Part shown: piece by piece, positions 1,857-14,916 of the stretch
Position numbering within the stretch: position 1 is the stretch's first letter
Layout: every line of letters begins with the position of its first letter
Assembly (NCBI GenBank): GCA_000004985.1
Contig: GG738905.1
Strand: one strand, 5' to 3'
DNA from: Naegleria gruberi
Taxonomy: Eukaryota
Length of the DNA stretch: 64,000 bases
Notes under the pieces: generated by a model
Told to the model about the DNA's origin: nothing
Database searches by the model: none
The model's input: the letters and a program-made list of their open reading frames with translations, nothing else
Made by a program: the position numbers and the translations under genes

Positions 1857-2110
1857 TTCTTGAAATTTAAGATATTTAATAAGCAATATACTAAGCATCG
1901 TTATATGTCTTTGCTTACTAATTCAACATTTCTCTTTCATAGTCTTCCTTCATTCTTTTAAAGTAGTGTCATTGAGTTCTAAGCTGTCACGTTCCTCACT
2001 TATGTAACACTATGAAATGATTGTAACCTTGGAACTTTAAGTTCCCAATGCAATTTGAAATTAAAATTTACTAATTGTCAGCACTAAACGTTCTCAACCA
2101 ATCAAAAAAA

Positions 2111-3280
2111 ATGGCCAAACGTAAAATAAGTCTGCCCAACGAAATTTTGATTGAAATTTTTCAATTTTTAGAATCATCATTTGTTGTTAACAGTTGTATG
2201 CTCATTTCCAAGAAGTGGTACAAAATCATTTTTAACCAAGTAAAGACACTTTCTTGTGAATTGACATTTCATGACCAGGAGAAGATCGATCGCCTTGTGA
2301 AAAGTCCATGGCTACATAATATTTCAAAGATTAAATTAAGAGCTTGTGATGACTATTTGGAATCAATCAAGGGATTGATGGAAATATTGAAAAGTTACGA
2401 TCAATTACGTAGTGTTGATATTGGTTATTGTTATATTGGAAATAGTCAAACAATTAGTGAAATGAAACAGTTAACATCACTTGATATTGATAATAATTGT
2501 GTGGACGAGCAAGGAGTAAAATTAATTGGTGAATTGCATAATTTGACAAGACTGAACATTGGTTGTAATAGAATTGGCTTGGAAGGTTTCAAATCAATTA
2601 GTGGAATGAAACAGATGAGAGATCTTAATGTCAGTAGTAGTGGTGCTGGAGTAGAAGGAGCTAAATTAATGAGTCAATTGAAACATTTAACAAAGTTTAA
2701 TATTAGTGGAAATGAAATTGGTGAAGAAGGTGCTAAATCGATTGGTGAATTGAAATGGTTAACAATGCTTGACATTTGTAGTAATCAAATTGGTGCAGAA
2801 GGTGCCAAGTCAATTAGTCAATTGGAACGTTTAACAAAGCTATATATTAGTGGTAATGGAATTGGACCAGAAGGAGCTCAATCGATTAGTCAATTGAGTC
2901 ATTTAACGACACTGTTTATTGGTGGTAATCAAATCGGTTCAAAAGGATCCAAATCAATTAGTCAACTGAAACGGTTAACAATTCTGTATATTGATTCTAA
3001 TGAAATTGGTTCTGAAGGAGCAAATTCAATTAGTCAATTGTCAAATTTAAAAGAGCTTTATATTAGTGACAATCAAATTGGTGACGAAGGAGCCAAATCA
3101 ATTAGTCAATTGAAACATTTAACAACACTTGAAATTCTTCGTAATGAAATTGGTGATCAAGGAGCCAAATCAATTAGTCAACTGAAACAATTAACAAGAC
3201 TCCATATAAGTTGCAATCGAATTGGAGATCAAGGAGCAAAATTACTTAATCGAATGAAAATTAATTCTCTAATAAATTAA
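2111..3280 (+). CDS. F-box protein with RNI-type leucine-rich repeats
   Basis: There is an AAAAAAAATGG start context. The N-terminal F-box reads LPNEILIEIFQFL. About 12 regular 28-aa repeats of the form LxxLxIxxNxIGxEGAKxIxxL follow, like ribonuclease-inhibitor LRRs. Confidence 0.7.
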   Translation: MAKRKISLPNEILIEIFQFLESSFVVNSCMLISKKWYKIIFNQVKTLSCELTFHDQEKIDRLVKSPWLHNISKIKLRACDDYLESIKGLMEILKSYDQLRSVDIGYCYIGNSQTISEMKQLTSLDIDNNCVDEQGVKLIGELHNLTRLNIGCNRIGLEGFKSISGMKQMRDLNVSSSGAGVEGAKLMSQLKHLTKFNISGNEIGEEGAKSIGELKWLTMLDICSNQIGAEGAKSISQLERLTKLYISGNGIGPEGAQSISQLSHLTTLFIGGNQIGSKGSKSISQLKRLTILYIDSNEIGSEGANSISQLSNLKELYISDNQIGDEGAKSISQLKHLTTLEILRNEIGDQGAKSISQLKQLTRLHISCNRIGDQGAKLLNRMKINSLIN

Positions 3281-3701
3281 CAAAAAAGCATTGGGAAATA
3301 AATTCAAACCAAATTTTGATAATAATAAAATATCAAAGTGACAATTAGAAATTAATGTCAAAACACCTCACTAATTTTGGACGAATTCAAACACATCTAT
3401 ACAAATATATTTTCAAATTATATTATAATTTGATCAAACACATTGGTAATTGTGCATTTCAATAATTTCTCAATAACACTATCAATTTAATATGTGTGGA
3501 ATAGTTTCAAGTGACTTGTCAATAGACCGAAGAGGAATGGAGGAACTGTATTTTCACATCACAAATAATGCAAAGAAAACAACCCAACTTTAAAAAAGGT
3601 AGTATGTTCTCCCTTTGTTTCCAAATAATAATAATGATTCAATCGGAATCTTAACAACAAGTATTAACGAGGAACCTCTTTTATTACAACAAGAAAAAAA
3701 A

Positions 3702-5321
3702 ATGGACGACGGAATTGATTCAACAAGAGAAGTGCAAGTCTTGAAGGAAGTAGGCTTGAATGCGGATCAAATTTTCCAACTCTTGATGGAGAAGGAAAAG
3801 ACAAGGCAAATAGAATTGGAAATTGTACTCGTGGAAAAGAAGAGAAAATTCTCTGATAACACTACTTCGGATGATGGAGTATTAACAGAATGGAAAAAGA
3901 AAAAACTAAATGAATTATCATCAAGAGCTTTATGTGGGGATGTTTGGATTAATATTTTGGAATTTCTTCCAGGCGTTGAAGGGTTTCGTATGGTGATGCT
4001 TTCTAAACAAGTAATGAGAGCAACAAAACACTTAACTAGAATTGAATTTGACAAACGTGTTAAATCGAGTAGATTAGAAGACTTTATATGTTCTTCACAG
4101 TTTAAGCATATTCAAACCTTGAACATTAACTATACTATTACACAGCCAATGTTTAATATCTTGATAAGGAATTGTGAAAATCTCAAAACATTGACAGTTG
4201 TAGTACCTGATGGTTTTGTTCTTGGCATCCCTAATTCAAACTGTAGTGTGAAAAATTTACGAACTTTACAACTTTCAACGGAATCACTCAACAAAGCCTA
4301 TTTAGAATCGCTCAACTCTTATTTGTTCAACCTCGAAGATTTAAAGTTACCATCATTTAAATCAAAACTTGCTTCTGACTTTCTTAACACCTGCACTAAA
4401 AATATTCGAGTATTAGAAATTGATAAGGTTAATTTCGACTTGGACCCAAAGGACTATCTGCCCAATTTGAAATCTCTGAAAATTCGACGCTTGATATGTA
4501 ATATGAAGATCTTTCTTTCATTTTTTGAAATCAAGACTTTAACTTCACTAAATATGTCCCTTGACAGTTTAAATAATGATGAAGGGTTTACAGAAACAAA
4601 TACTATAATTGAATCCAAGTTGGAATACTTGAAGTTGAATATCACTGGCATGCTTACTGATATAATTTGTAAATATCAATTTCCCAATCTTGAGTGCCTT
4701 TCACTCACTCCTGAATTAACGATGAATTCTGCAACTTCTTTAGGGACCAACTCCAGCTTAGCGAATTTAAAAACGTTGGAACTTTTCGAAACTAGCATTG
4801 ATGAATTGAAAGCGTTATGTAGCTCTATTTATCTTAAGAAGTTAACATCTCTTACTGTAGATTACGAAGATATTCGTGATATCGTTTGTGGTCTAGATTA
4901 TATAACACAATCAGAATCGTTTTCCAATCTATATAACTTGCAATTTTTTGGAAATAATGTAAATTTGGATTTATTTTCCTCCGTTTCTAAATTTTCCAAA
5001 CTCAGATTATTATACCTATATGATCCCGATATTAATTCACTTATTAATTTATCCAAATCCACACATTTTCCACATTTAAGAAAATTAAGGATCTACCTTA
5101 GCGAAATTGTTCCAACCAATTTCCTTGAAAATATTGCTAATAATGAATCATTTCGTAAATTGTTCTATTTAGGCATATGTCTTAATGATGAACAAGTTCC
5201 AATACTAGTTAATGCCAAATATTTCAAATTGAAAAACTTGACAATTTATGGCAAATATGTTACCAATGTAGGAGCTAAAATATTACAGGACCACAACATT
5301 AACTTTGAATTTGACGAATAA
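3702..5321 (+). CDS. F-box-like / LRR protein
   Basis: The start context is A-rich. The F-box-like segment reads WINILEFLPGVEGFRMVMLSKQVM. Irregular Leu-rich repeats (LxxLxLxx) follow through the rest of the 540-aa ORF. Confidence 0.55.
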   Translation: MDDGIDSTREVQVLKEVGLNADQIFQLLMEKEKTRQIELEIVLVEKKRKFSDNTTSDDGVLTEWKKKKLNELSSRALCGDVWINILEFLPGVEGFRMVMLSKQVMRATKHLTRIEFDKRVKSSRLEDFICSSQFKHIQTLNINYTITQPMFNILIRNCENLKTLTVVVPDGFVLGIPNSNCSVKNLRTLQLSTESLNKAYLESLNSYLFNLEDLKLPSFKSKLASDFLNTCTKNIRVLEIDKVNFDLDPKDYLPNLKSLKIRRLICNMKIFLSFFEIKTLTSLNMSLDSLNNDEGFTETNTIIESKLEYLKLNITGMLTDIICKYQFPNLECLSLTPELTMNSATSLGTNSSLANLKTLELFETSIDELKALCSSIYLKKLTSLTVDYEDIRDIVCGLDYITQSESFSNLYNLQFFGNNVNLDLFSSVSKFSKLRLLYLYDPDINSLINLSKSTHFPHLRKLRIYLSEIVPTNFLENIANNESFRKLFYLGICLNDEQVPILVNAKYFKLKNLTIYGKYVTNVGAKILQDHNINFEFDE

Positions 5322-5369
5322 ACCAGAACTTTACAATAGATCTGCTTACAACACCAATGTTTAAAAAAA

Positions 5370-6551
5370 ATGGGAACCAAACCATCACGTACCTCCAAAT
5401 CAGACGCCACTTCGGATGTCATGTTAATACAAAACAATAATAATATTCAACAGGCTTCAACTCGAAAAAGAGAAAAAGTTCTAATACTTGGTCCCTCCGA
5501 TTCTGGTAAATCCACACTATTCCACATGTTGAAACTAATAACTTCGGGACATGACGTTGATGCAAAATTTGAAAATAATTTGCGAATTGTCAGCTCGTGG
5601 GTTATTGAGAGAATTTGGGAAGCGATGGGAGAGCAAGAGCGTAATCACTTGAAAGATCTCATCCCTGAACTGAGATCAGTATTCGAAAATACAGAAGATG
5701 CTAATTTAGCTACTGAATTGCAGAACAGAGATGATTGTTGCGAAATACTGGTCACTCTTTGGAAAATTCCATTCTTTAGAGAGTTCTACGAATCGGTGTG
5801 GAGCAGAGATGGAATTTCAATGTTCGAAAATGTCAAGGAATTAGTCTCAAGAATTGAACACAAAAAAAGCTTTTCTCCATATTCATTGGTACATTGCAGA
5901 ACAACAGGAATATTATCATACGAAACGATGGGAAAAAACACTGAAATTGAAGTGATCGATGTTGGAGGAAGGAGAAATGAAAGAAAGAAATGGATTCATT
6001 GCTTTGAGGATACACATACATTAATTTACATGGTTTCTCTTTCAGAATTTAATCAAACTTTAATAGAAGATAACAGTACTCGTAGAATGGATGAATCTCT
6101 ATCCCTAATTAGTGAAGTAATGAATTCCAGATGGTTCGTTGGTCTGCGTAAAATAATTCTCTTTGTAAAACCGGATATTCTATGCAAAAAATTGGAAAAT
6201 GGAGTGAAATATGGTGGAGAACTCAATCCTAATATTTTACCAGAGCTAGACAGAATTGCTGACCATTATCTTAAACTAGTTATCAACTCGATCATTACAG
6301 AATTCTTCAAGAAAATCGATAGAACTACGATTGATTCCTATCATATTGTTAATAATACCTCAGAAGATGATATCAAATCCGTTTGTGAAATGATCTTTGG
6401 AGAGAGATCAGCTCAAAAAACAACCTTCATCTCACCCTGTATCATACCTGCCAACAATCGAATGATACTATGCCTCTTCAACATTTGTCTGCAAGAAAAA
6501 TTGACAGATATTCAAATCATTACTTCCAACGAAGAAGAAAATTACTACTAA
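5370..6551 (+). CDS. Divergent heterotrimeric G-protein alpha-subunit-like protein
   Basis: The N-terminus MGTKPS resembles a myristoylation site. The P-loop is LILGPSDSGKST. Switch I reads RTTGI. The block DVGGRRNERKKWIHCFEDTHTLIYMVSLSEF aligns to Galpha DVGGQRSERKKWIHCFE, but the catalytic Gln is replaced by Arg. ILFVKPD stands in place of LFLNKKD. A DSYHIVNNTS block replaces the TCATDT guanine-contact motif. Confidence 0.75.
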   Translation: MGTKPSRTSKSDATSDVMLIQNNNNIQQASTRKREKVLILGPSDSGKSTLFHMLKLITSGHDVDAKFENNLRIVSSWVIERIWEAMGEQERNHLKDLIPELRSVFENTEDANLATELQNRDDCCEILVTLWKIPFFREFYESVWSRDGISMFENVKELVSRIEHKKSFSPYSLVHCRTTGILSYETMGKNTEIEVIDVGGRRNERKKWIHCFEDTHTLIYMVSLSEFNQTLIEDNSTRRMDESLSLISEVMNSRWFVGLRKIILFVKPDILCKKLENGVKYGGELNPNILPELDRIADHYLKLVINSIITEFFKKIDRTTIDSYHIVNNTSEDDIKSVCEMIFGERSAQKTTFISPCIIPANNRMILCLFNICLQEKLTDIQIITSNEEENYY

Positions 6552-6704: not shown

Positions 6705-7472
6705 ATGGTCAATAACAAGAAGAATAACAAGAAAACATCAGCCATTGCTTCCGAAGTTGCTGGATCATCATCAAAACCATCATCAAAGAAGACCACCACA
6801 ACAGCTCCTCCAGCAGCTCCTGTTGCTACAGAAGTAGTAGTTGAAAAAGTAGAAAAAGCCACACCAACAACAACAACAATAGAAAAGAAGCAAACAAAGA
6901 AGGCAACAACAACTAAAACAACACAAGAAAAGAAGAATCCTGATGTTGCTGCTGATAAGAAGAGAAAATTGGATCAAGTTGTTGAAGAACCAGCTAAAAA
7001 GAAGGAAGAAACAAAGTCTTCTGCAGTAGTTGTTGAAAAATCATCAAAGAAACAAAAGAAAGAAACAAAGCCAGCAGTTGTTGTTGAAGAACCAAAGGAA
7101 GAAGAAGAAACTGAAGTTGTTGTTGAAGATGAAAAGGAAGAAAAGAAAAAGAACAAACGTAAGGAAGCCAAAACTGATATTGAAGTCACACTGAGAAAGG
7201 AAGATATTACAATGAGTGAAGAGGAATTTAAAAAGTGTTTCCATGATGCTGTGAAAATATATAGAGGATCCAAACGATGTGTTATTGTGCATTTGAGAGA
7301 TTCCGCTCAATTGGAAAAGTATTTGAGCAAGGAAGGTGAGGATGGTTCATTAATTCCATTGAATAAGAATTTTGTTGAAGTTGGAGGAAAGATTTTTGAA
7401 GTTAAGAGAGCTAAGGTGAAGGATGTTAAGAGAATTGCTAAAAAGAAGGCTGCTTGGGATAGTTTTAAATAA
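6705..7472 (+). CDS. Lys/Glu/Thr-rich basic protein with a small C-terminal globular domain, probably nuclear
   Basis: The start is A-rich. About 160 aa of KKxxE low complexity precede a C-terminal segment without repeats. I recognise no domain confidently. Confidence 0.45.
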   Translation: MVNNKKNNKKTSAIASEVAGSSSKPSSKKTTTTAPPAAPVATEVVVEKVEKATPTTTTIEKKQTKKATTTKTTQEKKNPDVAADKKRKLDQVVEEPAKKKEETKSSAVVVEKSSKKQKKETKPAVVVEEPKEEEETEVVVEDEKEEKKKNKRKEAKTDIEVTLRKEDITMSEEEFKKCFHDAVKIYRGSKRCVIVHLRDSAQLEKYLSKEGEDGSLIPLNKNFVEVGGKIFEVKRAKVKDVKRIAKKKAAWDSFK

Positions 7473-7652: not shown

Positions 7653-8735
7653 ATGAAAATACATCTCTTGAGTGATTTGCACATTGAACACTTCCCAGAC
7701 TTGGCCCAATTCCAAGACATGTACAAGGAACGATACGGAAATGAACTTTTGGAAAATAACAATCAAGCAAATGTTCTGGTTCTTGCTGGTGATATCGGAA
7801 ATGTTAAAAAGGTAGGCTATCAGCAATTCCTAGTCAAAGCCTCTGCGCTCTATGAACACGTCATTATTGTGGGAGGAAATCATGAATTTTATGGGAATGA
7901 ATATTTCGAATGTATGGCCAAGATGAAGGAGATTTGTAAGGAGGTTGGTGAGAATGTTCACTTTCTGGATAAATCAAAGGTGGAAATTGTGGATTCTGAG
8001 ACGAAGGAGGTATATGTTTTTGTAGGAGCTATTTTATGGTCGAATATTCCAGAAGAATCTCAACTCTATGTGGAATCTGTAGGTTTTTTCGAATGAAATA
8101 TTTATTTTGGAATGTCATTAATTTGAAATAATTTTTAATAGGCAATGAATGATTATCGATTGATTAAAATTAAGGAAAGTGGAGCCGATTCTGCAACCTT
8201 GTTGAGGACTAAACATACTGTTCAAATGTTCAAGGAAGAATCAGAATATATCAAACAAGAAATTGAAAAGGCAAAAATTAATCAACAAAAGGTAATTGTT
8301 GTTTCACACAATGCACCTTTGAATAGAGGAGTGAGTGCTCCACAATTCGAAACTGTAGATAATGGTTCAACAAGGAGTTTAAATTATGCCTTTGCTACTG
8401 ACCTGAGCTCAATCATGGATGATCACGTAATTGCTTGGCTATTTGGCCATACTCACTATAGCTCTCTTCAAAAGTTCAATAATACCATTGTTGCTAGTAA
8501 TCAATTGGGATATTTGAGAGGATTTTCAAAAGAGGAGAATAGTTACAAAGTAGATTGGATTCTCGATACCAATAACTTGAATCTTGCATCAATCCCAAAG
8601 TTTGTTCCCTATCCACCAAAATCACAAACTCAAACTACCAACGCTTCTGGAGCTTCTTCATCTGAAACCGTAAATAGCAATTCATCATCCAATCCTTCTA
8701 AATTTTCTAATATTTTGAGTTTCTTTAAGAAATAA
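7653..8735 (+). CDS. Calcineurin-like metallophosphoesterase. Exons are about 7653..8078 and 8142..8735.
   Basis: The metallophosphatase motifs are present: LSDLHIEH (DxH), VLAGDIGN (GDxxD), GGNHEF (GNHE), and GHTHY in exon 2. The intron is GTAGGT...AATAG with phase 0. Confidence 0.75.
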
Positions 8736-9439: not shown

Positions 9440-11038
9440 ATGGCCAAATCACCCTATCCACCAATTCCACTCTTTAATCTTACCGAAGCCTTTGTGATAA
9501 ACTCAACAAATCATCTCTATGTTCCATTCGAATCTACCACTTTATCCATTGTAGACACTGTCATCATGTCAATATTCATTTTAGCTCATATCGTTGCCAT
9601 CATTTTGGCGTTTACCTTTCTCAGAGTTGGATACTTGATGAAAAAACAAAAAGAAGAAGTGCAAGTAGTATTGAAGAATGTTCAATCGACAAAGGAACAA
9701 TTTTCACCAAATCGACAATCAACGAAACATGTTTCACATTCGACAGCAAATATTGGAACACCGACTGTGAATCATCAGGAGAGTAGTGATGTTTTGGGAA
9801 ATGGTAGTACTACTACTGTTGAATTATTGGAAGTGAATAATGTTAGTGGTATAAGCCTGTCACCTGCCGTGAATGGTAATCATTTGGATAGTGGAAGTTT
9901 GCAAATTAATAGAAATAATAGAACAATGTCGAATTCTAGTGATGTGCAGAATTCATCAACTTCATTCTCTACTACACCTGGATCTGTTTTGTTGAATGTT
10001 GGTGAAGAAGTTCATAATAAGGATAATGTTTCAGTTTCGTCCAATACAAAAATAAGACATTCCACCAGATTGGCAGTAAGCCAACATGCAAATCATCATC
10101 AAATGGATAGCGATGGAATGTCAAAGAATCAGAGGATTTTATTCATTCTTTTACTCTTCTTACTCTTCTTTCAAATGACAAGTTTACTTTTATTGATTAT
10201 TCACCATGCATTGAATTTCAGTGGACACGCTATGATTGATGATTATATTTTAAAAAGGAATAATGATATTGCTTCGGGAATCATTAGTGAATCATCTCCT
10301 ATTGAGCTGGTTCCTAGTAGGGAGTTTAGAATTGCAGACAGATTTGTTGGAATGTTTCAGGCGATTGTTGGAGCTTCATGTTATTTGATTATCCTGTACA
10401 TTTTATGTTTTATTGAAACAGTTTTGTAAGTCATTTGAATTCTAAAGATTGTTCTAAAATAACACATCCAAAATTAAAGCATCCAGACGGTTCAGAAAAC
10501 TGGAACCATGTCAAAGAAGACTGCAAAGATTATTACCACTATTTCTGTAATTGTTACCATTATTACAACCTCTTTAATCTTTGTGAGTATTGTATCCTCC
10601 TGTGTCATGATTCTCCTCGTAAAATCAGGAGTTATTACGGATGATGAGCTTTCTGCCAGTTTACCAGGAGCTGCCTTATTCATTTTCCAAGTTGTCTTTC
10701 ACAACGTCATTTTCAACGTTGTTGGATTTAAGGTACTGAGAACGATTCGTCAATATTCTTCCAAGCTCAACAGACAATCCAGTGAACGACCATTCTATAG
10801 AGTTATTATTTTACAGATAGGATTGACCATTTTTACAATCATTCACTTGTTGGGAGCTGTTTGCTTGGCTCTGTATCCTTCATGGGAATTTTTCGATGCA
10901 ATTTCATTTGCATTTTCTTCAATCGCAATTCTAGGATATACCACAATAATATTCTTCCTCTATAGACCATTATTTAAGGATGCTAGAATTCAAGCTAGGG
11001 AAATGAAGAAACTCATATCAGAAACTCAACATGACTAA
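9440..11038 (+). CDS. Multi-pass membrane protein with a Ser/Asn-rich loop. Exons are about 9440..10425 and 10480..11038.
   Basis: The start is A-rich. Hydrophobic helices flank a Ser/Asn/Thr-rich segment. A putative 54-nt GTAAGT...AAAG intron joins the two ORFs in frame. The C-terminal exon contains several more TM helices. Confidence 0.45.
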
Positions 11039-11148: not shown

Positions 11149-12828
11149 ATGACATCTTTTAATGATGTGGAGGATCAAGTTGTCATTTATTTAGATCATC
11201 AAAAAGATGGGAAAATTATCTACTCGGAAACAAATTCTCTTCTCAAGACGAAACTCTTAGCGGAATTAGTACAAAAACGAAACCATATTCAAGATTTGAA
11301 GGAATGTGTAAATTCTGGAGATAACAGTGTGAGAATGATCCTCCTTTCTCACTTTCCGATAATTGATAATCATGATCAAACCTACTTGTTGAATATTTTG
11401 GAGACTTTTAAGGAAGCATTTAAATTTGTTCCACAATCATTGAAGAATGATCGAAATTTTGTTCTGAAATGTTTGGAGGTGAATGGAGAATTATTTAAAG
11501 AGTATGAAATACTCGCGAATTATGTTTATACAGACGAGAGAACAGGGTTTTCATTTATTCGAAAAGCTTTTCAATTAGAAAGTGTCGTGAAACAGTTGGA
11601 TCCAAAGACAATTCTAAGTTTACCCTATAGTCCTTTACAGTATATCATTTCGAATAGAGAATTTTTTATGAAAGCAGTTTCAATCAATCCAACTATATTT
11701 TCATGTGCCTGTAGAACACTAAAGGCAGATGATGAGCTACTATTTGAAGCAGTGAAATATAATAGACAACATTTGAAATTTGCCTCTCTTAAACAGTTGG
11801 AAAATAGAAATTTAATATTTAGAGCTTGTGAAACCAAGGAAAGTAGTAAAATTGGATATTGGAGTTCAGTTTTGACGATTGCTTTGCCATTAGCCAAGTA
11901 TAATCCAGAATTAGCTTTGGAAATAGTGGAGAAAGACCATGAATCTGTTGCATGTGCAATCAAACATTTCAAAAATCACGAGAAAATAATAATGAAAGTA
12001 ATTGAGATAGCTCCATACTTGATATTCAAAGTTATCAAAAGGCAAGAATGGTTTCCAAATATGAAAGAAATTTGTCTATTAGCCCTAAAGAAAGATCCAT
12101 TGATCTACAAATACCTGGGGAGATTTAGATATGATAGGGACATTTTCAAGTTTGCTAGTGATTGTGGTCATATATCTATATCATACTTATATCTGTCACC
12201 TGAAATGCTAGGTGATAAGGTTTTCGCTGTTGGACTTGTAAGAAGTGTAAGTCCATTGTATTTTGAGAGACTTGATGAGAATCTGAAAAGGGATCGTGAT
12301 GTAATCCTAGCTCTTGCTGCACATTTACAAGTACTACAGCAAGAATTTAAAGAGAAGTATTTACCAAATTTAGAGAATGACAAAGAATTTTTATTAGAAG
12401 CAGTGAGAAGGAAGAGAAACGGCTTCTCTATTCTTTCATTCGCCTCAGATGAGTTGAAACAAGATAGAGAACTAATTCTTTCTGACATTAGAAAATGCAA
12501 CAATTTGAATCTAGTTCCTATCCATCTCAGATCAGATCGAGAAATAGTAGAAACTTTTATTAAGAATGTAAATTTATTTCTTTTTGATCCATCAAGTTTT
12601 CCTGATAGTCTATTGGAGGATAGTGAGTTTGTTTGGAGAATGATAGATTTGCGTCCTAATTTGATAAAAAAGTTTCCAAATCATGAATTTTTCAAAGAAA
12701 AGAAAATAATTCTCAAAATGATTTCTAAAAATATTCTCTGTAATGAAATTATTTCAAATGAACTTAGAGAGGACAGGGATATTAAATTGGCATTGATAAA
12801 AATAGGGAATTATCCATTCAAGGAATGA
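11149..12828 (+). CDS. DUF4116-type repeat protein
   Basis: About 10 degenerate repeats of roughly 35-40 aa match the DUF4116 pattern. Examples are LKNDRNFVLKCLEVNG, LKADDELLFEAVKYNRQHL, LKRDRDVILALAAH, LENDKEFLLEAVRRK, LKQDRELILSDI and LREDRDIKLALIKIG. Confidence 0.6.
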   Translation: MTSFNDVEDQVVIYLDHQKDGKIIYSETNSLLKTKLLAELVQKRNHIQDLKECVNSGDNSVRMILLSHFPIIDNHDQTYLLNILETFKEAFKFVPQSLKNDRNFVLKCLEVNGELFKEYEILANYVYTDERTGFSFIRKAFQLESVVKQLDPKTILSLPYSPLQYIISNREFFMKAVSINPTIFSCACRTLKADDELLFEAVKYNRQHLKFASLKQLENRNLIFRACETKESSKIGYWSSVLTIALPLAKYNPELALEIVEKDHESVACAIKHFKNHEKIIMKVIEIAPYLIFKVIKRQEWFPNMKEICLLALKKDPLIYKYLGRFRYDRDIFKFASDCGHISISYLYLSPEMLGDKVFAVGLVRSVSPLYFERLDENLKRDRDVILALAAHLQVLQQEFKEKYLPNLENDKEFLLEAVRRKRNGFSILSFASDELKQDRELILSDIRKCNNLNLVPIHLRSDREIVETFIKNVNLFLFDPSSFPDSLLEDSEFVWRMIDLRPNLIKKFPNHEFFKEKKIILKMISKNILCNEIISNELREDRDIKLALIKIGNYPFKE

Positions 12829-13196: not shown

Positions 13197-14916
13197 ATGT
13201 CTCCACATCATCTATTAATTCTGCTCTTGCTCATTTTCTTGCTGGTTGGCATTCAAATCCAACACACAAACCAGCAGGAAATTAAATTTATCAGAAAATC
13301 ATCACTGATACATCAGGAAATATCATCAGATCAATGGCAACTATCTATAGATGATGATCAAGCCTATTTAATGGAAGAAACAGATTGGACACTCTCCGAT
13401 CACTATTTTACACATTGTTGGAATACCACTCGATTGATGAGAGATGATTTGTATTATGATAGGATGTTTACGATGGGAGAGGAGATTCCATCTTCATTCG
13501 GATGTACTTCTATTCGATTACCAACTGTTTATGAATATTATCCATATAATAGGAAATCAATTTATAATTCAGAATTGAGAAATATTGGATTGGAGGATGA
13601 GGCATTATGTTCGAGAGTTGCTGATTGGGAAAGAAATTTAAATGTGAGCTGTCAGACATTATTGTGTGAAATGGATGGGAAAAGTGAAGGATATTCAGAT
13701 TTGAATGCAATGATTAGACAAAGAACTGATTCAAAGACTAGAATTGAAGATTGGGTTAATTATTGTCAATATTGTAAAGTGGATAATTTGAGGAAATATA
13801 GGGAAGAAAAGAAATGTAATCCCAAAGATGAAACTGCCAATTTTTTAATTAGAAAGTTTCCAAACTCTGCATTCTTTTGTGGATTTCACCAATTTGGAAT
13901 ACCCTTCATTATTAATACGTCGAGAATTGTTGATTTATCAGTGCCTCTGGAACATACTGATTTTTCATTCATTTGCTATTGTAGAGAGAGTCAGGCCTTT
14001 CACTTTAAATGTCCAGATGTGACAACTGAATTTGAGTTGAAAACTGAATATTTTGCATTTTTACTCACAATATTTAACAGTGTTTCGATAATATCTACGT
14101 TAGTATTACCAAAAGGATTTTCAATGATTAAGGATCGCAAAATTAATTGGAACATGTTGACAGCTATTTTCATGCTAAGTGCACAATGTGTATTTGCAGG
14201 ATTTTACTTGTACAAGATCATTTCTGAGGAGCAATATTCAAAGGGAATTGTTTTTTTTGAGTGTGGATTTGGTTTGGCAAATTTTGCCCTTATTTCATGG
14301 CTAATTGAATTTCACAAATTTATTCATTATGTGAGAACGAAAGTAATCTATAAGAAATCTCTGATAATATTGCGATTGGTGATATTTACAAGTTTATCTC
14401 TCATTATATTGTTACCAACACTTCTCATTGCTAACTTGGTTCAATTTAAAAAGAGAAAGATTACATTTATATTCCTCCAATTTTATTTTGGTTCATTTGA
14501 AATTGTAACATTGATTTCCTTAATAGTGGGATCAATAATTATTTACAGAGCTATGAAGCAAATTTCAGATATCGATATTTGGAAAACAAAAGTAAGTTTC
14601 AACACAAGGATAACTTGTTATATCAACACTATTCCAACAGTTCTTAAAGTTTACATTACTCGCTGGTCTACTTTTATTGCTGATAACAATTTGTAATTTT
14701 GTGGTAGGAAGTTTATATTTCATTCGTAGCGATATTGACTTATTTTGGTGGAATCTCAAATTCTTTGCCAACCAGGGGCTGTTCATTGCACTTACGTGGA
14801 TAGAGTACGATAAACTAGAGTTTAATCAATGTTACAGTTGTCAAAAATTAGTAAAGAAGGAAAAGTCAGATCTGGAAGTTGATTTGAGTTCAGATTACGT
14901 ACAGGTTAAAGAATAG
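13197..14916 (+). CDS. Orphan 7-TM receptor-like protein with an N-terminal Cys-rich ectodomain. Exons are 13197..14591 and 14641..14916.
   Basis: A signal-peptide-like N-terminus (LLILLLLIFLLVGIQ) precedes a roughly 260-aa Cys-rich region and then seven hydrophobic helices. A 49-nt GTAAGT...AACAG intron joins ORF 13197..14696 to ORF 14677..14916 in frame. Confidence 0.6.

What the first reader, a model, noticed from the sequence alone, without database searches (positions are those of the whole stretch)
5370..6551. G-alpha-like protein with substitutions at the GTPase catalytic and guanine-contact positions
The protein aligns colinearly with heterotrimeric G-protein alpha subunits. It has the P-loop GxxxSGKST, switch I RTTGI and an RSERKKWIHCFE-like block. 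Three positions differ from canonical Galpha. The switch-II DVGGQ is DVGGR, so the catalytic Gln becomes Arg. The NKxD guanine-specificity motif is VKPD. The TCAT(D/T) guanine-contact motif is replaced by IVNNTS. In canonical Galpha, changing the switch-II Gln abolishes GTP hydrolysis. Loss of the NKxD Asn and of TCAT normally weakens guanine binding. This looks like a pseudo-GTPase or a constitutively active or empty Galpha scaffold. It keeps an MGxxxS N-terminus, so it may still be lipid-anchored.
Basis: partly seen in the sequence, partly recalled or inferred. Interest (0 to 1): 0.68.

Follow-up and report, generated by a model that had tools for sequence, protein, structure and literature searches.

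The report
Hydrolysis-dead G-alpha-like protein family in Naegleria
This intact Naegleria gruberi gene encodes a G-protein alpha subunit that has lost the residues needed to hydrolyse GTP, and it belongs to a previously uncharacterised group of such proteins that share an unusual conserved tail, a protist parallel to the 'decoy' extra-large G proteins of plants.

Summary

The organism is Naegleria gruberi (XP_002671433.1, "predicted protein"), not a dictyostelid.

- Switch I has a 2-residue deletion between the catalytic Arg and the Mg-binding Thr.
- A conserved ~50-aa C-terminal extension follows helix α5.
- The protein belongs to a sharply delimited subfamily: at least 4 N. gruberi paralogs plus environmental sequences.

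Subfamily members share [TVS]KPD, H-[IV]-V-N-x-T, FISPC and a terminal L-[TS]-D-[IV]-x-[IL] strand. Their catalytic Arg and Gln positions vary freely.

The gene is not a pseudogene: dN/dS is 0.37 against a 74%-identical ortholog that still has DVGGQ. The Q→R change is therefore recent (CAG→AGG) and postdates the G4/G5 changes.

The P-loop, DVGG and the G4 Lys and Asp are conserved. I therefore favour a myristoylated protein that binds nucleotide, does not hydrolyse it, and is not receptor-coupled. An empty XLG2-like decoy is the main rival.

Deviant catalytic motifs in Naegleria Gα have been mentioned in the literature, so this is a new variant of a known kind. Interest is moderate.

The parts
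5370..6551 (+). Complete single-exon CDS (393 aa plus stop) of a Galpha-like protein; N. gruberi NAEGRDRAFT_59438
5370..5387 (+). MGTKPS: N-myristoylation consensus and the likely true start. The NCBI model starts 17 codons later, at window 5418
   Evidence: Fits the PROSITE-type pattern; the same start occurs in P0002 and P0261, and MG[SG]K.S occurs in paralogs P0117, P0119 and P0149
5490..5516 (+). G1 / P-loop GPSDSGKST (GxxxxGKS/T intact)
5553..5858 (+). All-helical domain (aa ~62-163)
5892..5912 (+). Switch I HCRTTGI. Arg177 abuts Thr178, a 2-residue deletion relative to canonical R-x-x-T-T-G-I
   Evidence: Alignments; shared with ortholog P0002 (HCRTAGM)
5958..5972 (+). G3 DVGGR. The catalytic Gln is replaced by Arg (codon AGG, 5970-5972)
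   Evidence: ortholog has CAG (Gln); P0261 also has Arg
5973..6008 (+). Switch II helix RNERKKWIHCFE, essentially canonical, including the reporter Trp208
6165..6176 (+). G4 VKPD. Asn is lost; Lys267 and Asp269 are kept
   Evidence: the subfamily consensus is F-T-K-P-D, and Asp269 is invariant in 10 of 10 members
6342..6362 (+). End of b6 plus the G5-equivalent loop, HIVNNTS (TCAT corresponds to V-N-N-T). This is a subfamily-conserved replacement motif, H-[IVF]-[IVC]-N-x-T
   Evidence: AF2 b6 = 323-327; alignments; His325 invariant
6363..6398 (+). Helix a5 (aa 332-343)
   Evidence: AF2
6402..6548 (+). Subfamily-specific C-terminal extension (aa 345-393). It contains FISPC (window 6426-6440), a helix at aa 364-374 and the terminal strand LTDIQII (window 6501-6521). 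It replaces a free a5 C-terminus
   Evidence: Conserved in all 10 members. The C-terminal-module HMM gives 137-181 bits for members against 27.7 bits or less for 249 other Galpha. pLDDT is 90 for block 351-360 in model 2. No Pfam match even at E<=10

Best explanation
The gene encodes a membrane-anchored (N-myristoylated), two-domain Galpha-like protein. It is one member of a paralog subfamily so far seen in Naegleria gruberi and in unassigned environmental sequences. The subfamily has stopped working as a GTP-hydrolysing, receptor-coupled switch.

Shown:
- The fold is Galpha.
- The catalytic Gln is Arg.
- Switch I is shortened by two residues between the Arg finger and the Mg-binding Thr.
- The G4 Asn and the G5 TCAT are replaced.
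- Helix a5 continues into a conserved ~50-aa extension instead of ending as a free tail.
- The gene is under purifying selection.
- Relatives share the G4, G5 and tail features, while their catalytic Arg and Gln positions vary freely.

Inferred:
- The P-loop GKS/T, the Mg ligands (Ser48, Thr178), DVGG (the gamma-phosphate sensor), G4 Lys267 and G4 Asp269 are retained. The protein therefore most likely still binds a guanine nucleotide but cannot hydrolyse it.
- Given the excess of GTP in cells, it would sit permanently in a GTP-type 'on' conformation, or at least not cycle.
- It would then act as a constitutive adaptor or scaffold through its near-canonical switch II surface (RNERKKWIHCFE) and its novel C-terminal module.
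- Regulation would come from abundance, localisation or modification rather than from a receptor and RGS cycle. This is how Rnd/RhoH-type pseudo-GTPases and plant XLGs are thought to work.
- The Q->R step in N. gruberi is a late event on an already non-catalytic background.

For: Catalytic defects: DVGGR, VKPD, VNNT and HCR--TTGI. Q204R in Gai1 abolishes hydrolysis and all plant XLGs carry R or K at this site (10.1101/795088, read). Gas Q227R/H is GTPase-deficient (PMC12423288).

Order of events: ortholog P0002 has CAG (Gln) but already has VKPD, IVNTIS, the switch-I deletion and the tail.

Subfamily: exhaustive phmmer found P0116, P0117 and P0244 (all N. gruberi) and P0118, P0119, P0149, P0156 and P0206 (metagenomes) aligned through the tail. 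The HMM score gap is 137-181 bits against 27.7 or less. NJ bootstrap is 1.00, and 0.95 when G4, G5 and the tail are excluded.

Residues kept: Asp269, His325, Ile354, Ser355 and Asp380 are invariant. Gly200, Arg205, Lys267 and Cys357 are nearly invariant. P-loop GK[ST] is kept in 7 of 8 full-length members. The Qcat position reads R,Q,R,S,K,S,M,K,T, and Rcat is mostly absent.

Myristoylation consensus is present in 6 members at the start and 1 at an internal Met.
Against: No biochemical data exist for any member. Nucleotide binding is inferred from motif retention only.

The G5 loop normally contacts the guanine through backbone atoms around a small Ala. Here that position is Asn, which could clash. 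In XLG2 the equivalent A->Q change accompanies 100-1000-fold weaker GTPgammaS binding (10.1101/795088).

Nf Galpha7 shows that Naegleria Galpha can be stable when nucleotide-free (PMC9283941).

Some paralogs have lost the P-loop Lys or the DxxG Asp (P0117, P0118, P0244), so part of the subfamily probably does not bind nucleotide at all.

Omega of 0.37 is loose for a Galpha. Expression is untested. Where the tail docks could not be examined because model coordinates are not exposed.
Confidence: 0.5

Rival explanations
1. Nucleotide-free decoy. As proposed for Arabidopsis XLG2, the protein is empty in vivo. It acts independently of nucleotide by binding and sequestering Gbeta-gamma and/or RGS proteins, damping or re-routing signalling by the canonical Naegleria Galpha subunits.
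For: The G4 Asn is lost and the G5 Ala position is Asn. In XLG2, G5 A->Q and Qcat->R/K accompany 100-1000-fold weaker GTPgammaS binding, with retained Gbeta-gamma and RGS1 binding (10.1101/795088). Nf Galpha7 crystallised in a stable nucleotide-free state (PMC9283941). The switch II Gbeta-contact block ERKKWIHCFE is kept. Some paralogs have lost the P-loop Lys or the DxxG Asp.
Against: Unlike XLG2, this protein keeps an intact GxxxxGKST, DVGG, the Mg-binding Thr, and the G4 Lys and Asp. Asp269 is the single residue invariant across all 41 aligned Galpha and subfamily sequences, which is hard to explain if guanine is never bound. T/V-K-x-D variants of G4 are compatible with tight GTP binding in Rho-family GTPases (own knowledge: Rac1 TKLD).
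Confidence: 0.27
2. Still a cycling switch. The protein binds GTP and is switched off by a dedicated GAP that supplies the missing catalytic residue in trans, as RapGAP does for Rap, which lacks the Gln. Alternatively it hydrolyses very slowly on its own, making it an extreme 'self-activating' Galpha.
For: G1-G3 and switch II are nearly canonical in this protein and its ortholog. Naegleria encodes over 100 RGS-domain proteins and has self-activating Galpha subunits (PMC9283941). The ortholog still has the Gln.
Against: The Gln position is R, S, K, M or T and the Arg finger is mostly missing across the subfamily, so no conserved catalytic geometry is being maintained. RGS proteins act by orienting the Galpha's own Gln, and Arg at this site cannot pair with the RGS Asn thumb (10.1101/795088). 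The switch-I deletion moves the Arg finger next to the Mg-binding Thr.
Confidence: 0.15
3. A decaying or unexpressed pseudogene copy of a Galpha gene, with the substitutions being neutral drift.
For: Naegleria gruberi is reported to have ~44 Galpha genes (PMC8584482), so redundancy is plausible. Omega is higher than expected for a core signalling protein. No expression data were available.
Confidence: 0.03

Closest known systems
Plant extra-large G proteins (XLG1-3), 'decoy' / nucleotide-independent Galpha
   Same: Both have a Galpha fold with the catalytic Gln replaced by Arg or Lys, an altered G5 (Ala -> Gln in XLG2, Ala -> Asn here), predicted loss of intrinsic and RGS-stimulated hydrolysis, and co-existence with canonical Galpha in the same cell (10.1101/795088; PMC8584482).
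   Different: XLGs carry a large N-terminal extension and have also destroyed the P-loop (G->E, K->A), the DVGG motif (RLNP) and the Arg finger (->E). This protein is of normal length, is myristoylated, and keeps P-loop, DVGG and Arg, though the Arg is displaced. It has a conserved C-terminal extension that XLGs lack. The origin is independent: it groups in a separate clade with Naegleria and environmental sequences.
GTPase-deficient oncogenic Galpha mutants (Gas Q227R/H/L, Gai1 Q204R, Gao Q205L)
   Same: The same residue is substituted, in some cases identically (Gln -> Arg in DVGGQ). The documented effect is loss of GTP hydrolysis with constitutive activity (PMC12423288; 10.1101/795088).
   Different: Those are single somatic changes in otherwise canonical, receptor-coupled proteins. 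Here the change is germline, is fixed in the lineage, and sits on a background with altered switch I, G4, G5 and C-terminus.
Canonical and 'self-activating' Naegleria Galpha subunits (Nf Galpha1-13; Nf Galpha7, PDB 6NE6)
   Same: Same genus. The best PDB sequence hit is Nf Galpha7 (E = 1.7e-29). Both have Ras-like plus helical domains and the switch II Trp.
   Different: The canonical Naegleria Galpha examined here (P0005, P0010 and P0016 from N. fowleri and N. gruberi, and P0008 from Willaertia) have GAGESGKST, R-x-K-TTG, DVGGQ, NKxD and TCATD, and they end shortly after a5. Identity to this protein is only ~30%.
Constitutively GTP-bound small pseudo-GTPases (Rnd1-3, RhoH): functional analogy only
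   Same: Nucleotide-binding motifs are kept and catalytic residues are replaced. These proteins are regulated by expression and localisation rather than by a GTPase cycle (own knowledge; class concept in PMC12490416).
   Different: They belong to a different GTPase family (Rho), with no helical domain and no relation by descent beyond the P-loop GTPase fold.

Membership tests
Heterotrimeric G-protein alpha subunit (Pfam PF00503), by homology and fold | Profile score above the curated threshold over the full domain | tested here: met
   185.2 bits against a cut-off of 48.8; aa 23-342 against profile positions 8-329 of 333
Heterotrimeric G-protein alpha subunit (Pfam PF00503), by homology and fold | Ras-like GTPase domain with an inserted all-helical domain | tested here: met
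Catalytically competent Galpha (functional switch) | G1 GxxxxGK[ST] | tested here: met
   GPSDSGKST at aa 41-49
Catalytically competent Galpha (functional switch) | Switch I Arg finger spaced R-x-x-T from the Mg-binding Thr | tested here: not met
   HCRTTGI: Arg177 is directly followed by Thr178, a 2-residue deletion
Catalytically competent Galpha (functional switch) | G3 DxxGQ with a catalytic Gln | tested here: not met
   DVGGR, codon AGG; confirmed in the independent copy P0261
Catalytically competent Galpha (functional switch) | G4 NKxD | tested here: not met
   VKPD: Asn is lost, Lys and Asp are kept
Catalytically competent Galpha (functional switch) | G5 TCA[TD] | tested here: not met
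   V-N-N-T at aa 327-330, after b6 at 323-327
Catalytically competent Galpha (functional switch) | Free a5 C-terminus for receptor coupling | tested here: not met
   a5 (332-343) is followed by a conserved 50-aa extension
Catalytically competent Galpha (functional switch) | Measured GTP binding and hydrolysis; Gbeta-gamma and RGS binding | not testable with these tools
   Requires recombinant protein assays
Catalytically competent Galpha (functional switch) | N-terminal lipid anchor signal | tested here: met
   MGTKPSR fits the myristoylation pattern; there is no Cys for palmitoylation
Plant XLG (extra-large G protein) | Long N-terminal extension preceding the Galpha domain | tested here: not met
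   The protein is 393 aa and the Galpha domain starts at about aa 23
Plant XLG (extra-large G protein) | Qcat replaced by R or K | tested here: met
   Arg201; criterion taken from 10.1101/795088
Plant XLG (extra-large G protein) | Degenerate P-loop (G->E, K->A), DVGG lost, Rcat -> Glu | tested here: not met
   GPSDSGKST, DVGG and Arg177 are all present; criteria taken
Naegleria-type 'FISPC-tail' Galpha-like subfamily (defined here) | [TVS]K[PV]D in G4; H-[IVF]-[IVC]-[NKQ]-x-[TIL] in G5; FISPC; terminal [LF]-x-D-[IVL]-x-[IFL] strand | tested here: met
   All four motifs are present. The C-terminal-module HMM scores 181 bits for P0001 against 27.7 or less for non-members. NJ bootstrap is 1.00 / 0.95

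The most novel reading that the evidence does not exclude
The window gene represents a heterolobosean lineage of receptor-uncoupled, non-hydrolysing Galpha proteins that arose independently of plant XLGs and converged on the same Gln -> Arg/Lys solution. In this lineage guanine recognition was rebuilt rather than lost: the Asn moved from G4 (NKxD -> TKPD) to a new G5 motif (TCAT -> VNxT). The receptor-coupling a5 tail was replaced by a new conserved module (FISPC ... LTDIxI) that docks back on the Ras-like domain and serves as the output or autoregulatory element. That would make it a natural, GTP-locked Galpha with a new effector interface.
Probability: 0.25. Interest if true: 0.6.

Novelty: new variant of a known kind. 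Interest (0 to 1): 0.42.

Why it matters
Catalytically dead Gα proteins have been studied experimentally only in plants (the XLGs). There they overturned the assumption that Gα function needs a nucleotide cycle.

A second, independently evolved family would allow a comparative test of what a Gα scaffold does once hydrolysis and receptor coupling are gone. This family sits in a free-living amoeba reported to have ~44 Gα genes and over 100 RGS proteins. It shows graded degeneration, from DVGGQ in the ortholog, to DVGGR here, to members lacking the P-loop Lys.

The family also supplies natural sequence pairs for biochemistry, such as Q versus R at the catalytic site on an otherwise 74%-identical background. 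It flags a conserved C-terminal module of unknown function.

One practical point: the public gene model omits the myristoylation signal.

The general existence of Naegleria Gα with deviant catalytic motifs has already been mentioned in reviews, so the advance is one of definition and detail, not of principle.

Tried and rejected
1. **G5 misalignment.** A first MAFFT run placed ITEFFKKIDRTT opposite FTCATDT. My profile of 77 canonical Gα aligned only to residue 277.

2. **Truncated BTB domain.** The C-terminal helix plus L-T-D-I-x-I strand looked like the start of a BTB domain, possibly with a missed downstream exon. I rejected this. A permissive Pfam scan (E≤10) of all 10 C-terminal modules gives no BTB or other domain. 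Only about 150 bp separate the stop codon from the next gene. All members end within 12 residues of the motif.

3. **P0025 and P0004 as members.** P0025 has DVGGR, TKKD and an F-box insert. P0004 (Leptophrys) has DVGGS. They group only weakly with the subfamily (bootstrap 0.3-0.77) and lack the tail (HMM: P0004 14.3 bits, P0025 no hit). I treat them as separate cases.

4. **Searches that led nowhere:**
   - The search for homologous proteins with the short C-terminal profile returned nothing, not even the members.
   - The same tool with the full subfamily profile scored only canonical-like candidates.
   - A metagenome-contig scan gave no relatives.
   - The AFDB50 fold library was not available.
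   - Anantharaman et al. 2011 (Gene 475:63), the cited primary source on Naegleria Gα, is not held.
   - No paper mentions the locus tags.
   - The Bosch 2022 supplement contains no matching strings.

5. **Gene neighbourhood.** Neighbouring genes are F-box/LRR, LRR and DUF4116 proteins and give no functional clue. The ortholog's contig shows a different neighbour, a CoA-transferase.
Full report
**1.

Window 5370-6551 (+) is an uninterrupted 393-codon ORF.
- It matches Pfam G-alpha (PF00503) at 185 bits, against a gathering cut-off of 48.8, over aa 23-342 and profile positions 8-329 of 333.
- Its best solved-structure relatives by sequence are Gα chains. The top hit is Naegleria fowleri Gα7 (6NE6, E=1.7e-29), followed by G(z), G(o), G(q/11) and G(i).
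- Two AlphaFold2 models give a Ras-like domain plus helical domain. The second, built with subfamily sequences, has pLDDT 82 and pTM 0.80.

| Motif | Residues |
|---|---|
| MGTKPS | 1-6 |
| GPSDSGKST | 41-49 |
| RTTGI | 177-181 |
| DVGGR | 197-201 |
| RNERKKWIHCFE | 202-213 |
| VKPD | 266-269 |
| IVNNTS | 326-331 |

The G5 placement was the only uncertain point.
- A first MAFFT alignment put a different segment opposite TCAT.
- My canonical-Gα profile stopped aligning at residue 277.
- Both structure models place strand β6 at 323-327 and helix α5 at 332-343.
- A subfamily-aware alignment puts HIVNNTSE opposite HQTCATDT.

So TCAT corresponds to V327-N328-N329-T330, and no canonical residues hide nearby. 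An independent environmental sequence about 98% identical (P0261) has the same DVGGR, VKPD and IVNNTS, which excludes assembly error.

**2.

The organism is Naegleria gruberi, not a dictyostelid. The protein is EFC38689.1 / XP_002671433.1 / D2VWV2 / NAEGRDRAFT_59438, annotated "predicted protein".

The public model starts at Met17 and omits MGTKPS. Several lines support the ATG at 5370:
- The ortholog and the environmental copy both start MGTKPSRT.
- Paralogs start MG[SG]K.S.
- The sequence fits the N-myristoylation pattern.

(a) Switch I is two residues short. "SLVHCR--TTGI" aligns with canonical "DILHCRVKTTGI", so the Arg finger abuts the Mg-binding Thr.

(b) Helix α5 does not end the protein. 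A roughly 50-residue extension follows, carrying FISPC, a helix, and a terminal LTDIQII strand.

(c) The protein is not a one-off.

**3. A subfamily**

An exhaustive phmmer search of 1.84 billion representatives found proteins that align through the extension.
- P0116, P0117 and P0244 are three further N. gruberi "predicted proteins" (D2VBI2, D2VVW3, D2VG73).
- P0118, P0119, P0149, P0156 and P0206 come from ENA or Logan assemblies.

An HMM of the region from G4 to the C-terminus scores the ten members at 137-181 bits. The best of 249 other Gα scores 27.7 bits. The clade has NJ bootstrap 1.00, and 0.95 when only residues 34-258 are used, which excludes G4, G5 and the tail. Long-branch effects cannot be excluded, but the shared derived motifs are independent evidence for the clade.

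Shared features:

| Region | State in the subfamily |
|---|---|
| Switch I | shortened |
| G4 | F-[TVS]-K-[PV]-D; Asn lost in all, Lys kept in 9 of 10, Asp in 10 of 10 |
| G5 | H-[IVF]-[IVC]-[NKQ]-x-[TIL]; His invariant |
| Tail | FISPC (Ile and Ser invariant) |
| C-terminal strand | [LF]-x-D-[IVL]-x-[IFL]; Asp invariant |

The catalytic positions, in contrast, are free to vary.
- The switch-II Gln position reads R, Q, R, S, K, S, M, K, T.
- The Arg finger is absent in most members.
- The DxxG Asp reads D, D, D, N, T, D, D, T, D.
- The P-loop GK[ST] survives in 7 of 8 full-length members; P0117 has GTST.

The window protein and its ortholog are the least degenerate members.

**4. Selection and order of events**

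The closest relative is P0002, 74-78% identical, on ENA metagenome contig L001. Its coding DNA is 85.5% identical to the window CDS.
- None of 2000 substitution-only neutral simulations kept the frame open.

The gene is therefore maintained by selection, although loosely for a Gα. The switch-I-to-G4 segment is the least constrained (ω 0.41) and the αG-α5 segment the most (ω 0.29).

P0002 already has the switch-I deletion, VKPD, IVNTIS and the tail, yet it reads DVGGQ. The codon is CAG, against AGG in the window. That is two nucleotide changes, and both possible intermediates are non-Gln.

So the G4, G5, switch-I and tail changes are old and shared. The Gln→Arg change is recent and specific to the N. 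gruberi lineage. This ordering, together with the free variation at that site in paralogs, argues that GTP hydrolysis was already dispensable when Q→R occurred.

**5. Mechanism**

*Shown:* a Gα fold with a probable lipid-anchor signal. The catalytic Gln is missing, the Arg finger is displaced, the G4 Asn and G5 TCAT are gone, and there is no free α5 tail.

*From established knowledge:*
- Gαi1 Q204R abolishes hydrolysis, and Arg or Lys at this site cannot cooperate with the RGS Asn thumb (10.1101/795088).
- Gαs Q227R/H is a classic GTPase-deficient mutant (PMC12423288).

*Inferred:* the residues that grip phosphates and guanine are retained. These are the P-loop GKST, Thr178, DVGG with the γ-phosphate-sensing Gly200, and Lys267 and Asp269. 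Asp269 is the one column invariant in all alignments. I therefore favour a protein that still binds guanine nucleotide, cannot hydrolyse it, and is effectively locked on or non-cycling. It would signal or scaffold at a membrane through its near-canonical switch II and its new C-terminal module.

The conserved Asn in the new G5 motif may compensate for the Asn lost from G4, but that is speculation.

In the second model the FISPC block (351-360) has pLDDT 90, so it is predicted to pack on the core. Residues 376-393 remain at low confidence.

*Rivals:*
- The main rival is an XLG2-like empty decoy that sequesters Gβγ or RGS proteins. It is supported by the G5 Ala→Asn change and by precedent (Nf Gα7 nucleotide-free). 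It is weakened by the intact G1 and G3 and by the invariant G4 Asp.
- A switch that still cycles using a trans-acting GAP is less likely, given the unconstrained catalytic positions.
- The pseudogene reading is essentially refuted.

**6. Comparison with what is known**

The closest functional analogues are the plant XLGs. All of them carry R or K at the catalytic Gln position, and XLG2 has A→Q in G5. But XLGs also destroyed the P-loop, DVGG and the Arg finger, and they carry a long N-terminal extension. This protein fails those membership features and is an independent lineage.

It is a homolog of Gα by every fold and profile test. It fails four of the five G-box criteria, and the C-terminal criterion, of a catalytically competent receptor-coupled Gα.

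Prior mentions in the literature:
- Maruta et al. [quoted passage not shown] 2011. I could not read that paper.
- de Mendoza et al. 2014 note only a lineage-specific Gα diversification in N. gruberi.
- Bosch et al. 2022 characterise canonical and self-activating N. fowleri Gα.
- No held paper mentions these locus tags.

**7. Verdict**

The finding is real and the pseudo-GTPase reading is broadly right. It is more informative once seen as one member of a conserved, uncharacterised subfamily with a rebuilt G4/G5 and a new tail, in which Q→R is a late step.

The general phenomenon has been noted before and a well-studied analogue exists, so I rate it a new variant of a known kind, with moderate interest of 0.42.

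Limits of this work: there is no biochemistry and no expression data. The taxonomic spread beyond N. gruberi and unassigned metagenome contigs is unknown. The key prior paper was unavailable.

Noticed in passing
window 5370-5420: The public N. gruberi gene model (XP_002671433.1, 376 aa) starts at Met17 (window 5418) and omits the MGTKPS myristoylation signal. That signal is conserved in the ortholog, in an environmental copy and in paralogs, so the model is probably N-terminally truncated.
   Followed up: yes
L002 6001-7302 (JGI 3300062347, contig Ga0606064_0061; protein P0025): A 433-aa Galpha-like protein from a eukaryotic metagenome contig. It has MGNKSSRTS, DVGGR (the same Gln->Arg change), FTKKD, and an F-box-like domain (PF12937) inserted between G4 and strand b6. 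It lacks the FISPC tail and groups only weakly with the subfamily.
   Followed up: partly
proteins P0120, P0131, P0143 (no locus fetched): Proteins of about 670 aa that contain two Galpha domains in tandem. In P0120 the first copy reads DVGGR and the second DVGGQ, so this looks like a pseudo-Galpha fused to a canonical one.
   Followed up: no
protein P0004 (EukProt EP00475, Leptophrys vorax transcript): A rhizarian Galpha with DVGGS (Gln->Ser), a normal NKVD, and ISALS in place of TCATD. This is another independent case of a Galpha lacking the catalytic Gln, and here it is a transcript.
   Followed up: no
window 5321-5370: Only 48 bp separate the stop codon of the upstream LRR gene (3615-5321) from the Galpha start codon, which leaves very little room for a promoter.
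   Followed up: no
window 2075-3277, 3615-5318 and 11149-12825: Two adjacent same-strand genes lie upstream: an F-box plus LRR protein (2075-3277) and an LRR_14 protein below Pfam's cut-off (3615-5318). A DUF4116-repeat protein lies at 11149-12825. Several other ORFs (6705-7469, 8145-8732, 9440-10426, 13197-14693) have no Pfam match.
   Followed up: partly
protein P0117 (N. gruberi D2VVW3) and P0118/P0244: Some subfamily paralogs are much more degenerate than the window protein. P0117 has lost the P-loop Lys (GTADSGTST) and the DxxG Asp (NVGGS). P0118 and P0244 read TAGGK. The subfamily therefore spans a gradient from near-canonical to probably unable to bind nucleotide.
   Followed up: partly
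L001 1389-2996 (-): The ortholog's metagenome contig carries a CoA-transferase family III gene next to the Galpha-like gene. The window has a Lys-rich ORF with no known domain at the corresponding side, so local synteny is not conserved on that side.
   Followed up: no
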